DNA of 64,000 nt from Octopus vulgaris (Eukaryota), in assembly GCA_951406725.2 (NCBI GenBank), contig OX597824.1, positions 80,042,001 through 80,106,000 on the forward strand, in the 5' to 3' direction. The position numbers and the translations under genes were made by a program. The first letter of the stretch is position 1; each line of letters begins with the position of its first letter. Under the pieces are notes generated by a model. The model had not been told where the DNA came from and did not search any database. It saw only the letters and a program-made list of their open reading frames with translations. Positions 1-64,000 of the stretch are shown piece by piece.

Positions 1-736
1 GCAGTGCGCTTTACATCACATGTTAAATTCACCACTACAGATATTCTATAGAAATTATAGCCAGCCCAAACCCTACCTGATTAAGGGGTTAGATAGATAC
101 TGATGAAGGGGCAAAAACTCCCGCAATGTGGCACATATACTCATTACTCATCTTTCATTTTCGATCTCATTGTTTGTTTACATATGGCATATTGGATATG
201 AAACGTCGTAACAAAAATCCCTGCCCGCTATGATTTGTATAGAAAATCTGTAGAAATGACCTTAATAAGAGTAGTTCTAGGGTTTTGAGGAGTGTGGATC
301 CACCTCTTATCCCCTACTGTTCCCGTCTACTTTGATACTGAGCAGTAGCACCTGTTAGGGTCTCGTCAATAGGGTCTCATTCAATTAGCATGTGAACTAC
401 TGGGAGTGAAGGACCCCTAGTTTTCGTTAAAACTTCCTTCTTGGGGAAGATAAATTTGTAAAGAAACACCTGCAGGGCAATTGGTCTCTGGTGGTCTGCA
501 CATATTTAGTGTCACTGGTTTTATAGCTTATTGAGCTGAAAAGTGGTTTCAGTGTTGTGCAACTCTTTATTCACTGAAACCAAATTCACGCACAGGAACT
601 CATTGGACTCCCGAAACTTTTGCACGGACTTCCACCATATATACATACATTACACCATGCATAGATATATATAGATACATACATACATGCATGTATATAT
701 TCATACATTACCAACATGCATACATAGATACATACT

Positions 737-948
737 TGTTTTTATCCTTGACAAACAGTGGATATATAATTTAACGATGCAGAGGTAAAAATTAATGTGT
801 TCACACGAGTACATCGCAAAACTCCAAAACGTCCTCTCAACGACTCCTATCGACCTCTTGTCTCAACCAATACTTTACTCTTTATAAGAGATATCGGCTA
901 GTCCATTCTTCCAATCCCTCAGGAGTCTTAATGGCGCTCGCCAATACA
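737..948 (-). mobile_element. 3' LTR of a Gypsy-type retrotransposon
   Basis: On the minus strand a polypurine tract AAAGGAGGAGA (959-949) is followed directly by TG (948). There is an internal TATAAAA and a plausible CA end near 737. It lies just downstream of the integrase remnant. Confidence 0.6.
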
Positions 949-959
949 TCTCCTCCTTT

Positions 960-2095
960 GCGACTGACTTCCGTTTGAAGTTAATATTTTCTTTTTTTTT
1001 CTTTTATCGCATCTCCCTTATTGAGATTCTCCTCCAAGGGAAGTTTAATATTTCTTCCGTTTAGACGCTACTTCCAACCGTTCTGTTTGTTTCCTCTTTC
1101 TTGTGTTGCTACGACTAGGTTTGAAAGTTCGATTTCTTGTGGCGTGTGAACATCAAAAGTGTCGTACAACACTTCCATGAGTATTAAATTTTCTTTTTTC
1201 GGTATATCTATTTTTTAACTGGTTTAAATGTCTTTTGTATTCCCATTTTTAGCCTCTTACTATATATGTCATTTACCTACGCTTTTTGTTACTACTCTGT
1301 CTTTCTAGACTTGTCTTCCATTTTTATATATTTTGAAAAACACCTTGTCACCGATATTTAAATGCTTTGTCGTACATTTAGTTTTTACCTATTTGTTTTT
1401 CTTTCTGGTAACAGCTTGTCGAAAAAATTGACTATATTTTTCGAGCAAACATTAGTTCCGTAGATGCCTTGCACGAAAAAGTGTTTGGGTTTGGTATTAT
1501 CCTATAAACCCTTCAAAAATTGTGTCAATGTAGCGTTATCAACTAGCTCGTTTCTTGATTTCTTTCATGCTATTTTAAATGTATCCACGAATCTTTCCAC
1601 TAGCCCGTTTGATCTTGGGTGATACGGAGTAGTAGTGATATGTTTAATTGTGTACATCTTGCAAAAATTCTTAAATTCATTCGCCGTGAATTGTGTACTG
1701 TTATCCGAGACTATGGTAACCGGGACACCATACCTAGCAAAAAGTTCGCGTAGAAATTCCACTGTTACCGTGGATGTTGGTTTTCTGCATGTATACATTT
1801 CTGGCATTTCGAAAATCTACCTAACCACTAATAGATAATATGATCGGTTTAACGGTCCTGCGAAGTCTATGTGTAGCCTGGACCATGGAATGGTCTTGGG
1901 CCCAGGTTGAAATTTTGTAGGTGGTGAGTTCACTGCAAGAACACAACCTCTGCAGGATTTTACCAACTTCTCAATATCTAGATCTTTTTTTGGCCAGTAA
2001 ACATAACTCCTCATAAGCAACTTCATCCTAGAAATTCCTGGATGTCCAGTGTAGAATTTCTTTAACATTCGACCCTGTAGTGAGGTAGGCATTAC
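960..2095 (-). pseudogene. Decayed Ty3/Gypsy pol: integrase Zn-binding domain, rve core and C-terminus
   Basis: ORFs 1817-2092 (GHPGISRMKLLMRSYVYWP...CRGC...PWSRLHIDFAGPL) and 1565-1807 (YGVPVTIVSDNSTQF...PYHPRSNGLVERF) carry Gypsy integrase motifs, separated by a stop/frameshift. Confidence 0.93.
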
Positions 2096-2099
2096 GTCA

Positions 2100-60349: not shown

Positions 60350-61062
60350 GGCTGTGTGGTAAGTAGCTTGCTTACCAACCACATGGTTCTGGGTTCAGTC
60401 CCACTGCGTGGCACTTTGGGTAAGTGTCTTCCACTATAGCCTCGGGCCGACCAAAGCCTTGTGAGTGGATTTGGTAGACGGAAACTGAAAGAAGCCCGTC
60501 GTATATATGTATATAAATATATATATATATATATATATATACCGGAGTAAACACATAAATGTGAAACAAGGTAGAAGAAAGAGTACTCAAATACCAGTGG
60601 TAGAGTATTATGCTTTATTTAAAGCAGCAGAAAATTCAACAAAATTCAACAAAATTGAATTTTCTGCTGTTTTAAATAAAGTATATATATATATATATAT
60701 ATATATATATATATATATATATATATATATATATATTAATAAAAGGAATTCCGACCTTGTCTGATTTTCACGTTTTATTTACAGTCTTATAATGATATAA
60801 GATAATATAATAAAATAAAATAAAATAGTAGAATGTTAAATGTTCATTCTGATTGAACTAGTACTTTCATGCATTAAATTCTGCAATCTTCAGGTTCATG
60901 TAGTAGTGGTGAGAGTCATGCTTCACAATTTTTGACTATATATATATATATATATATGTGTGTGTGTGTGTGTGTGTGTGTGTGTGTGTGTGTGTGTGTG
61001 TGTGTGTGTTTGTGTCTGTGTTTGTCCCCCCAACATCGCTTGACAACAGATGGTGGTGTGTA
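60350..61062 (+). mobile_element. SINE family A split by Penelope-like fragments inserted in its internal (TA)n
   Basis: Head at 60350-60502; body resumes at ~61008 (tgtgtctgtgtttgtcccccc...gcttgacaac). Inserts at 60541-60681 and 60735-60935. Confidence 0.82.
60854..60898 (-). ncRNA. Type I hammerhead fold, second copy of the 21401 family
   Basis: Minus strand reads TGAAC-CTGAAGA-TTGCA gaatttaa TGCAT-GAAA-GTAC-TA|GTTCA. Core and stems are conserved while the loop and flanks differ from 21401. Confidence 0.75.
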
Positions 61063-61409
61063 AAAGAGTAAGGGAAAAGATGACAAGCGTTATAGTGAGG
61101 AGAAAGAAAATGTAGTGAGAAGCGGGAAAAATAGTGACGTGTTGTGGAAAAAGAAAGAGTGAGAAAGATGGCAAAATGTGTGAGAAAAAGAGAAAGAGAA
61201 GGAATGAAAGAGTGAGTGAGTGAGAGAGAGATAAGGGAATAGATAAATATACAGATATAGAGAGAGAGACAGAGAGAGAAACATGGATAAAGAGAGCGGG
61301 AGAAAGAGAAATAGAGAGAAGGAGATAGATAGATACAGAGAAAGAGATAAAGAGAGATACAAACGTGGAGAAAGAAAAAGAGAAATGTGTGAGAGAATGG
61401 TGCATGTGA

Positions 61410-62100
61410 ACGGCAGATAGATAGATAGATAGAGAGAGACGGGGAGAGGGAGAGGGAGAGAGAGAAGGAGATAGATAGATGGAGAAAGAGAGAGAGAAGG
61501 GGAGAGGGAGAGGGAGAGAGAGAAGGAGATAGATAGATGGAGAAAGAGAGAGAGAAGGGGAGAGGGAGAGGCAGAGAGAGAAGGAGATAGATAGATGGAG
61601 AAAGAGAGAGAGAGACGGGGAGAGGGAGAGGGAGAGAGAGAAGGAGATAGATAGATGGAGAAAGAGAGAGAGAAGGGGAGAGGGAGAGAGAGAGAGGAGA
61701 TAGATAGATGGAGAAAGAGAGAGAGAGAGAGATGGGGAGAGGGAGAGGGAGAGAGAGAAGGAGATAGATAGATGGAGAAAGAGAGAGAGAGACGGGGAGA
61801 GGGAGAGGGAGAGAGAGAAGGAGATAGATAGATGGAGAAAGAGAGAGAAAGAGAGAGAAAGAGAGAGTGAGGGAGAGAGAGAAGGAGATAGATAGATGGA
61901 GAAAGAGAGAGAGAGAAAGAGAGAGAGAGAAAGAGAGAGGGAGGGAGAGATAGAAAGAGAGAGAGGGAGAGGGAGGGAGAGAGAGATGAGAGAGAGATAA
62001 AGAGAGAGAAGGAGATAGATAGATAGATAGAGAGAAACAGAGAGAGGAGATAGATAGACAGATAGATAGAGAGAGATAATGCGAGAGAGAGAGAGAGAGA
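61410..62100. repeat. Purine-rich minisatellite (~55-62-bp unit gggagagggagagagagaaggagatagatagatggagaaagagagag, about nine copies)
   Basis: Directly visible. It explains the 426-aa and 347-aa S/L-rich ORFs. Confidence 0.92.
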
Positions 62101-64000
62101 GTAACGTGGAGAAAGAAAGAGAGATGGGTACAAAAGAGAAAGAGAATAGTGAGAGTAGGTGAGACGTAATTATAAAAGAGAAGTACTGAAATGGAAAAGA
62201 CACCTAACGACAGCTTTTAAGATGGACGGACACAAAACGTTTGATTGGGCGTGTAAACGTCTTCATATGACTTCAGCTTGTGGAAGAGAAAAGAATTAGA
62301 TGACGCAGATAGGTACATGGACAGACAGACAGATAGATAGACAGATAGATAGAACGAAACTCTGATACGTTTGTGTGTGTATATATATATATATATATAT
62401 ATATATATACATACATGCATGTATATTTATGTGTATGTGTGTGTGTATGTGTATATAAATACACACACGCATATATATACAAATATATATATATACATAC
62501 ATATATACTTATATATGTGCATATATATACATGCATATATATGTGCATATATATATGCATAATATATATATATATATATATATATACACATTGCCAGTTA
62601 GAGAGCGTAAGGAACTGAGTACTTGAGAACGAGGCAGAACCAGAACTAAATGGGGATTGTTAGAAATAGTGTGAGAAATAGAAAAAGTAAAGCTAAGAGA
62701 GAGAGAGAGAGAGAGAGAGAGAGAGAGAGAGAGAGAGAGAGAGGGAAAGTATATGTGAGAGAAAGTATGTGTGAAACCTAGAGGAAGAGGGTATAAGAAG
62801 TAGAGAGGGCAAAGAAAAAAGAAAGAGAGCTAGATTTAAGAGTCAGATACGAGAAGTATGTGCCGTGTGGTAGAACGTATTGCTATCACCAATGCCTTCA
62901 GGCGTCCATTTTAATTGGACAAGCAAGTGAAAGTAAAGGACACTTACTGGTTTCCAACTTCCGGTTCGGAAGGATTTTGGCCTGTGGAAGCGAAAGGACT
63001 ATGTCTGCTCGTGTACATGTATGTATTCATTCATTCATATATATATATACTTATATACATATATATATAGTATATAATATATATATATATATATATATAT
63101 ATATATATATACACACACGTTTATACGCGCCCACCCACACATACATGCTTATCTATCAATCTATCTCTCCATAAGTGAAGCCAGTGGGAGTGACAAAAGG
63201 AGCGTTACTCAGAAAGGGTTTAAGAGAAAGGTAGACACAAAGAGGTCAGGAATTCAGGATGTGTGCGTATGTATGTATGTATGTATGTATGTATGTATGT
63301 ATGTATGTATGTATGTATGTATGTATATATGTATGTATTTATGTATGTTTGTATGAATATATTTATGTATGCATATGCATACATACGTTAAAGGATGCCC
63401 GTAATATATATGTATATATATATATATATATATATATATATATGACGGGTGTCATTTAACTTTCCGTGTACCAAAGGCTGTTGTAGAGAACACCCTCACA
63501 AGGTGCCACTCAGTGAGAATGAACCCGGAACCGTGTCATTGGAAGCACACATTTTACCACATAAGCACATTCACATATCTCTAAAATACGAGAACGAAAA
63601 AGAGTGTGTGGAAGAGGTTATGCGAATAGATAGACGCATACATGGATAGATAATACACTCACAGAGACACGCACGCACACACACGTGCCCCCACATATAT
63701 ATGTACGGAAGCACCTCTCTCTCTCTTTATCTATCGATTTATCTATCTATCTATCCGCTTGTCTGTCTGTCTGTCTGTCTGTCTATACATCGACGCGACG
63801 CGAGCGTATATACGTGATTGTAGTTTTTCGTATTGAAACTATAACTGGAAGTTTGTCTCGCAATTCGAGTTTCACGCCACTGCAATCTTCAGGTGTGAAT
63901 CTTGAATCGCATGACACACTCTCAGTTTAAGATTCAATTAAAAAAAACATCCTCTGCAACATGTACTTTTTTCGTTCACCGACGTATTCATGTATTAGAA

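What the first reader, a model, noticed from the sequence alone, without database searches (positions are those of the whole stretch)
100..63898. Window-wide census of diverse hammerhead folds, mostly parked in microsatellites
Seen in sequence: good folds at 21401(-), 22414(-), 51186(-)/51337(+), 53461(-), 54008(+) and 60854(-), plus degenerate ones at ~100(+), 54299(-), 55145(-) and 63856(-). They belong to several families with unrelated flanks, yet each good fold has a palindromic stem III (AGTACT, ACCGGT, ATAT, ACGT, ACAATTGT) and most sit beside (TA)n or (TTA)n tracts. No Penelope RT or GIY-YIG coding sequence was recognised. Inference: a radiation of ribozyme-bearing Penelope termini or retrozymes that target AT-rich microsatellites. 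At roughly ten motifs in 64 kb, the genome could hold very many, with consequences for intron-containing pre-mRNAs.
Basis: partly seen in the sequence, partly recalled or inferred. Interest (0 to 1): 0.72.

Follow-up and report, generated by a model that had tools for sequence, protein, structure and literature searches.

The report
Penelope retrotransposon hammerheads with variant cores
The hammerhead (self-cutting RNA) shapes are in the sequence, and the five intact families are the leftover tail ends of Penelope-type jumping genes, mostly beside AT-rich repeats, a known arrangement; the unusual part is their estimated number (roughly 90,000 per genome) and that many carry altered core letters, one of which is predicted to weaken cutting in a very abundant family.

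Summary
Observation largely confirmed. Six of the seven 'good' folds are at the stated coordinates. A strict descriptor finds 7 motifs in the window against 0.04 in shuffles. 51337(+) is broken. The four 'degenerate' motifs are decayed copies of hammerhead-bearing repeats.

All five intact families lie in sense, 0.4-1.6 kb downstream of Penelope RT/GIY-YIG coding sequence elsewhere in this octopus-like genome: one Hydra-type, four Neptune-like. This is known biology.

A 600-kb sample gives about 90,000 motifs genome-wide (54,000-141,000). Twelve of 20 have non-standard cores. The 53461 family carries U at core position 6 in 7,605 exact copies against 281 with another letter. I found no natural A6U in print, but could not read the key 2017 paper.

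Cutting is untested; effects on host pre-mRNAs are untested and look unlikely. Earlier notes of this scan reported the same elements on other DNA.

The parts
95..142 (+). Decayed hammerhead, family H. GAAA reads GCAA. Family majority has a CTGATGAA core, stem I GGGTG/CACCC and a near-palindromic stem III.
   Evidence: 12 loci aligned; 506 first-look candidates. No Penelope ORF found in +/-1.5 kb flanks.
21401..21445 (-). Family B hammerhead: C3:G8 core, U10.1-U11.1 mismatch, stem III AGTACT. In a 5'-truncated Neptune-like end of about 21280-21740.
   Evidence: GIY-YIG motif about 420 nt upstream in L033
22414..22449 (-). Family C hammerhead: U3:A8 core (23 of 25 copies TTGAAAA), stem III ACCGGT. 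Element 22362-22601 ends in (TA)17.
22834..22906 (+). Stem III TAGTAAT/ATTACTA, stem I TCAAGA/TCTTGA, stem II partner upstream (GGCTGG/TCAGCC). In a young repeat end of about 22616-22997 that ends in (TA)n.
   Evidence: 99.5% identical to two copies 843 nt apart in L160
35168..35242 (+). No second copy found; no genome search made.
   Evidence: no relative in the loci held
51186..51232 (-). Family D hammerhead: U3:A8 core plus extra A (23 of 25 copies TTGACAAA), stem III ATAT. Left arm (about 51101-51274) of an inverted pair inside (TAA)n.
51337..51385 (+). Broken family D hammerhead in the inverted arm (51274-51406). The two arms fold into one long hairpin (-146 kcal/mol) that is predicted to hide both motifs.
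53461..53498 (-). Family E hammerhead with family-wide A6U core (CUGUNGAA), stem II GAGC/GCUC, stem III ACGT. Element about 53362-53550 ends in (TA)n.
54008..54091 (+). Family A hammerhead: standard core, 7-bp stem II with long insertion, stem III ACAATTGT. In a Hydra-type 3' end at 53727-54250.
54299..54333 (-). Decayed hammerhead, family F (G5 and stem I lost). Family majority keeps a standard core, stem II GGAC/GTCC and ACGT. Tail to tail with the family A end.
   Evidence: 1 of 12 loci passes the strict descriptor
55145..55180 (-). Decayed hammerhead, family I. Relatives show a 10-nt palindromic stem III and C at core position 4.
   Evidence: 4 relatives in 3 loci; no genome search made
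60854..60898 (-). Second family B hammerhead, same strand as 21401 and 39.5 kb away. Element about 60737-60931.
63856..63898 (-). Decayed hammerhead, family G. Palindrome and stem I damaged; family majority has CTGAAGA, a U-U base and ACTCGAGT.
   Evidence: 12 loci aligned

Best explanation
The five intact families of motifs are type I hammerhead shapes in the 3' end repeats of Penelope-like retrotransposons, and the window copies are short 5'-truncated ends that were likely pasted into (TA)n or (TAA)n tracts by the element's own reverse transcriptase and GIY-YIG nuclease. Shown: the folds, the sense linkage behind RT/GIY-YIG sequence, family-specific microsatellite junctions, and inverted or truncated copies. 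Inferred from the literature: target-primed reverse transcription. In tandem precursor RNAs, two copies would pair through the palindromic stem III and cut slowly, probably with help from the element's protein. Lone copies such as these are predicted to be mostly inert. Cutting is probably not essential for spreading, which would explain how a family fixed for A6U reached thousands of copies.
For: Linkage. Family A: L016 has an 839-aa open RT to GIY-YIG frame, a sense hammerhead 1.2 kb behind it and an inverted copy in front (Pfam RVT_1 E=0.008 and GIY-YIG E=7e-4, both below gathering). Family B: L033, with an RT piece in L032. Family C: 6 loci checked of 30 after walking upstream. Family D: 4 loci checked of 25. 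Family E: 5 loci of 30 after walking upstream. Fragments of B, C, D and E all hit one common locus, L167, by tblastn.

Junctions: C 21 of 24 anchored copies end in (TA)n, E 18 of 21, B 7 of 14; D 21 of 22 end in (TAA/TTA)n (25 loci each). For A, 7 of 7 non-window copies printed end in (TA)n (10 loci asked, 8 printed).

First-look candidates: 995-1,762 per family.

Literature: PMC4209133 (palindromic stem III, dimers, U3-A8, extra base after A9), PMC8557442 (inverted and truncated copies, (TA)n bias, Hydra definition), PMC11167929 (protein-assisted; hammerhead mutants still insert in vitro).
Against: No cleavage or expression data. Pfam gave no GIY-YIG hit for the B and C fragments, and only sub-threshold hits for D and E, so identity rests on motifs and mutual similarity. 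Clades were assigned from linker motifs by eye, with no tree; family D has a longer linker and an altered CxxC. Families F, G, H, I and 35168 have no shown link to an ORF. Predicted homodimers give a clean hammerhead junction for only 3 of 8 motifs (both B copies and A). C pairs U3 with A17; D, E and 35168 prefer other pairings.
Confidence: 0.9

Rival explanations
1. The motifs belong to non-autonomous retrozyme- or SINE-like elements that replicate through circular RNA and only borrow Penelope enzymes.
For: Most copies are 150-500 nt with no ORF. Families F, G, H, I and 35168 have no ORF link. The 22.6-23.0 kb element recurs as an 843-nt unit with no similarity to my 15 Penelope fragments in L160.
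Against: All five intact families continue upstream into RT/GIY-YIG sequence. 5' ends vary from copy to copy, as expected for truncation.
Confidence: 0.07
2. The motifs are active in host transcripts and cut or destabilise intron-containing pre-mRNAs on a large scale.
For: About one intact-looking motif per 30 kb. Two same-strand family B copies lie 39.5 kb apart. Family A can form a 2-bp stem III as a monomer (sequence).
Against: A single minimal motif did not cleave (PMC4209133). The Anolis motif needs the element's protein, and no reads ended at the site (PMC11167929). Palindromes differ between families, so cross-family dimers would not pair. The inverted pair is predicted to be hidden in a hairpin. 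Gene context was not tested.
Confidence: 0.1
3. The folds are chance matches in AT-rich, low-complexity DNA.
For: With one free core mismatch and no palindrome requirement, shuffles give 4.4-4.7 hits against 11 observed, so loose hits such as 7209, 24559, 28482 and 46523 may be chance.
Against: Strict hits: 7 against 0.04. Stem III is palindromic in 10 of 12 sample hits where this was not required, with 0 control hits. The 3:8 core pair covaries among families (C:G, U:A, G:C).
Confidence: 0.02

Closest known systems
Minimal type I hammerheads in pseudo-LTRs of metazoan Penelope-like elements (Cervera and de la Pena 2014, PMC4209133; parts 1-2 of 4 read, 2 of 3 supplement files searched)
   Same: Type I layout, palindromic short stem III, extra base after A9, U3-A8 covariant, many unrelated families per genome, mostly solo truncated copies, pairs on opposite strands.
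   Different: That paper's top counts are about 4,000 (coelacanth) and 9,000 (Xenopus); my estimate here is about 90,000 with a different descriptor. No octopus and no U6 core in the passages and supplement hits I saw.
Hydra-clade Penelope-like elements, including Hydra-1_Obim (Craig et al. 2021, PMC8557442; passages, section 11 and supplement rows read)
   Same: Family A has RT then a C-terminal GIY-YIG, a CxCX5C linker (CNCRIKSKC), CxxC before the conserved E, no CCHH, a hammerhead and (TA)n junctions.
   Different: A different hammerhead from the one listed for Hydra-1_oBim, with a long stem II insertion and Asn-rich protein insertions. Compared by eye, no tree.
Neptune-clade Penelope-like elements (linker definition from PMC8557442)
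   Same: Families B, C and E have a CX4CxxC linker before GIY-YIG; microsatellite junctions.
   Different: Family D has CX12CxxC and an altered CxxC in the nuclease, so its placement is tentative.
Natural hammerhead core variants (Perreault et al. 2011, PMC3088659, section 8 read; PMC7151607, passages read)
   Same: U3:A8 and U10.1-U11.1 are described there. A6C is a natural, slow variant that cleaves with Mn2+.
   Different: Here position 6 is U, fixed in a family of more than 7,600 copies. My searches listed no hammerhead paper on it.
About 150,000 small hammerhead variants associated with Penelope-like elements (Lunse, Weinberg and Breaker, RNA Biol 14:1499; text not held; title seen in a reference list; the number is recalled)
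   Same: Reduced stem III, cleavage as dimers, Penelope association.
   Different: Could not check whether it covers cephalopods or U6 cores.
Type-SGC hammerheads (Eckert et al. 2023, PMC10085705; passages read)
   Same: The 22834-22906 motif has the order cleavage site, GAAA, CUGANGA.
   Different: It lies in an animal genomic repeat, and the strand before GAAA pairs best with an upstream strand, not with the strand after CUGANGA. Untested for cutting.

Membership tests
Type I hammerhead ribozyme | Core C3-U4-G5-A6-N7-G8-A9 and G12-A13-A14, or a compensated 3:8 pair | tested here: met
   Met for families A, B, C, D and 35168. Family E is in the next row.
Type I hammerhead ribozyme | A at core position 6 (family E) | tested here: not met
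   U6 in 7,605 exact copies, another letter in 281; 18 of the first 100 of those listed have A.
Type I hammerhead ribozyme | Stems I and II close the core; A15.1-U16.1; H17 is not G | tested here: met
   7 window motifs. Family B opens stem II with U-U, a described variant (PMC3088659).
Type I hammerhead ribozyme | Self-cleavage after H17 | not testable with these tools
   No raw-read RNA run was listed; needs a bench assay.
Penelope-like element hammerheads (min-HHR) | Short palindromic stem III that allows dimers | tested here: met
   4 of 4 window hits and 10 of 12 sample hits when unconstrained.
Penelope-like elements (EN+) | Hammerhead in the end repeat, in sense behind an RT plus GIY-YIG frame | tested here: met
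   Families A-E. Pfam support is sub-threshold or absent.
Penelope-like elements (EN+) | Same linkage for the decayed families F, G, H, I and for 35168 | tested here: inconclusive
   No linked ORF in +/-1.5 kb of 36 loci for F, G and H. I and 35168 were not searched genome-wide.
Penelope-like elements (EN+) | 5' truncation, partial tandems, inverted 5' copies | tested here: met
   L016, L017, L018; window 51101-51406; variable 5' extents.
Hydra clade (family A) | CxCX5C linker, no CCHH, CxxC near E, (TA)n insertion | tested here: met
   L016 translation against the definition and alignment rows; junctions.
Hydra and Neptune clades | Placement in an RT phylogeny | not tested
   No tree built.
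Neptune clade (families B, C, E; D tentative) | CX2-5CxxC linker and CCHH in the nuclease | tested here: inconclusive
   Linker present in B, C and E. CCHH is readable in C, partly decayed in B and E. D deviates.
Retrozymes | No protein-coding frame | tested here: not met
   Not met for A-E. Open for the other families.
Type-SGC hammerhead (22834-22906) | Block order site, GAAA, CUGANGA, with stems I and III | tested here: met
   6-bp stem I and 7-bp stem III; 3 hits in 600 kb and 11 in all loci against 0 in reversed controls. Related copies L020 and L034 show paired changes, read by eye.
Type-SGC hammerhead (22834-22906) | Stem II formed by the strand right after CUGANGA | tested here: not met
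   0-1 pairs right after the core against 6 pairs with an upstream strand in the window and L034. L089 is ambiguous (4 against 5).

The most novel reading that the evidence does not exclude
This genome is a natural library of about 100,000 hammerheads in which most carry non-standard cores that standard searches miss. It includes an undescribed working A6U core, kept through several subfamilies while the neighbouring free position 7 changed, and a scrambled-order hammerhead with its stem II strand moved upstream. Family-specific palindromes would restrict dimer cutting to RNAs of the same family.
Probability: 0.3. Interest if true: 0.7.

Novelty: new variant of a known kind. Interest (0 to 1): 0.42.

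Why it matters
Whether Penelope-like elements need their hammerhead is an open question. PMC8557442 calls its function unclear, and in PMC11167929 inactive mutants still inserted in vitro. Family E offers a natural test: U6 is fixed in thousands of copies and several subfamilies, and related motifs with A6 exist in the same genome. If it is dead, cutting is dispensable for mass spread. If it cuts, the accepted core is wider than thought. Also, 12 of 20 sampled motifs would escape a plain CUGANGA search, so published counts may be low.

Tried and rejected
Rfam scan: only microRNA and snoRNA-type matches on microsatellites among the 150 of 163 listed; no hammerhead.

Loose descriptor hits at 7209, 24559, 28482 and 46523 were dropped, because shuffles give a similar number. 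CUGANGA sites at 7285, 20118, 37458 and 54563 gave no informative relatives in the loci held.

RNA evidence: no RNA holder listed, and no raw-read run. I did not lay contigs, since they cannot show RNA ends.

Pfam on the whole 839-aa frame gave nothing; its parts gave sub-threshold hits.

My first 3'-junction anchor for family A was about 90 nt short and gave 0 of 15; repeated with a better anchor.

Intron strand bias was not tested, for lack of annotation.

Literature: Lunse et al. was not held. Searches for octopus hammerheads listed no survey. The 2026 Octopus vulgaris repeat annotation (PMC13282606, passages) does not use the words hammerhead or ribozyme in its main text. One supplement file of PMC4209133 could not be searched, and the PMC8557442 file was cut when stored; either may hold further core variants.
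Full report
Setting. The window is G000:C11:80042001-80106000 in a 2.80-Gb assembly of 227 contigs. An octopus is my inference, from genome size and from one fetched repeat (L074) that resembles the end of the published Naiad_Obim sequence. The window is dense in microsatellites and holds no Penelope coding sequence.

Observation. Six named motifs have exactly the stated edges. 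The first descriptor gave 7 hits against about 0.2 in shuffles. A second one, tuned after I had seen the motifs, gave 7 against 0.04. Palindromic stem III is not an artefact of the descriptor: when left free, 4 of 4 window hits and 10 of 12 sample hits are palindromic, the other two are one base off, and controls give none. 51337(+) is a broken copy. The motifs at 100, 54299 and 63856 are damaged members of repeats whose majority sequence folds as a hammerhead (12 loci each). 55145 has four such relatives in three loci.

Identity. Each intact motif belongs to a large family (995-1,762 first-look candidates). Family A (54008): locus L016 has an inverted hammerhead-bearing copy, an 839-aa open RT to GIY-YIG frame, then a sense hammerhead. 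Its CxCX5C linker and lack of CCHH fit the Hydra clade of PMC8557442. Families B, C, D and E carry the hammerhead in sense 0.4-1.4 kb behind a GIY-YIG motif. For C and E this needed one upstream walk. Linkers of B, C and E fit the Neptune definition; D deviates. Pfam hits are sub-threshold for A, D and E and absent for B and C. No tree was built.

Targets. Copies end directly in microsatellite: C 21 of 24, E 18 of 21 and B 7 of 14 anchored copies in (TA)n; D 21 of 22 in (TAA/TTA)n; A 7 of 7 printed. In the window, 9 of 11 motifs are within 300 nt of such a tract, against 40% of random positions. In the genome sample it is 16 of 20 against 35%.

Numbers. Sixty 10-kb stretches at round-number positions on contigs 1-27 gave 20 hits against a mean of 0.6 in 10 shuffles. 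That scales to about 90,000 (Poisson range 54,000-141,000). Two pairs of hits share an element or locus, so the true range is wider, and decayed copies are not counted. With a wider core and a score cut-off of 10, the 20 hits are 8 standard, 8 U3:A8, 2 G3:C8 and 2 U6, against a shuffle mean of 0.7.

Family E. A 36-nt pattern with U6 has 7,605 exact matches and 0 for the reversed control. The same pattern with another base at 6 has 281; of the first 100 listed, 70 are C, 18 A and 12 G (my count), as expected for decay from U. Position 7, free in hammerheads, is U 35, C 31, A 28, G 6 among the first 100 listed (my count). In 29 aligned copies, A7, G7 and C7 mostly go with different flanking letters, so several subfamilies spread with U6. 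U7 copies are mixed. I had no control for other positions, so constraint is suggested, not shown. The related A6C change is slow with Mg2+ (PMC3088659, PMC7151607). In predicted folds, U6 lets the core pair with the GAAACG strand. Both point to weak or no cutting.

Mechanism. Shown: folds, linkage, junctions, truncation and inversion. Inferred: nicking of AT-rich DNA and target-primed reverse transcription that usually stops early, leaving 3' ends; slow dimer cleavage in tandem precursors (PMC4209133; review PMC6765202, section 11 part 2 read), probably protein-assisted and not required for insertion (PMC11167929, passages). Predicted homodimers give a clean junction for only 3 of 8 motifs. 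The inverted pair at 51.1-51.4 kb folds into one long hairpin. A large effect on host pre-mRNAs is untested, and I put it at about 10%.

Addition. Prompted by earlier notes of this scan, I tested the repeat at 22.6-23.0 kb. It holds a hammerhead-like motif in the order site, GAAA, CUGAAGA, with a 7-bp stem III and a 6-bp stem I. It is the only window hit; there are 3 hits in the 600-kb sample and 11 in all loci, against 0 in reversed controls. Some of the 11 repeat the window copy and two look like chance. The strand before GAAA pairs best with an upstream strand, unlike published type SGC (PMC10085705). Few full copies were seen, so this is only partly tested.

Verdict. Real and well observed, but the basic arrangement has been published since 2014. 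What is added is the scale, the high share of variant cores, a family-wide A6U core that I did not find in print (Lunse et al. not readable), and a scrambled-order motif. Interest 0.42.

Noticed in passing
window 22616-22997 (+); L160:5814-7068: Young repeat (99.5% identical to two copies 843 nt apart in L160, no similarity to my Penelope fragments there) ending in (TA)n and carrying the scrambled-order hammerhead-like motif; possibly a non-autonomous element.
   Followed up: partly
L074 near 1950-2000; L089, L092, L122, L213: Further scrambled-order motifs with different stem sequences. The L074 one resembles, by eye, the 3' end of the published Naiad_Obim sequence.
   Followed up: partly
L129:8285(-), L176:8380(+), L217:2323(-): A family with a swapped G3:C8 core and stem III AATATT; 2 hits in the 600-kb sample, none in the window.
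   Followed up: partly
window 55145-55180 and L083, L170, L194: All relatives read C at core position 4 (YCGATG), possibly a family-wide U4C variant; five sequences only.
   Followed up: no
window 53362-54390: Three unrelated hammerhead-bearing ends (E, A, F) within 1 kb; A and F are tail to tail across a short TA tract, suggesting repeated insertion into the same microsatellites.
   Followed up: partly
window 51101-51406: Inverted pair predicted to form a long double-stranded hairpin on either strand; a possible substrate for A-to-I editing (inference).
   Followed up: no
window 23921-24906 (+): Decayed LINE fragment with an endonuclease-type Pfam match (PF14529, E=3e-4, below cut-off).
   Followed up: partly
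window 1817-2221 (-): Broken frame that looks like an LTR-retrotransposon integrase piece (recognised by eye).
   Followed up: no
window 16767-17689 and 42079-43257: Tandem arrays of 183-nt and 219-nt units, five copies each, that look like head-to-tail SINE pieces.
   Followed up: no
window 39001(-), 51871(-), 56422(+), with 51695(-) and 56598(+): A dispersed repeat with CUGANGA-like words that did not pass the hammerhead descriptors.
   Followed up: no
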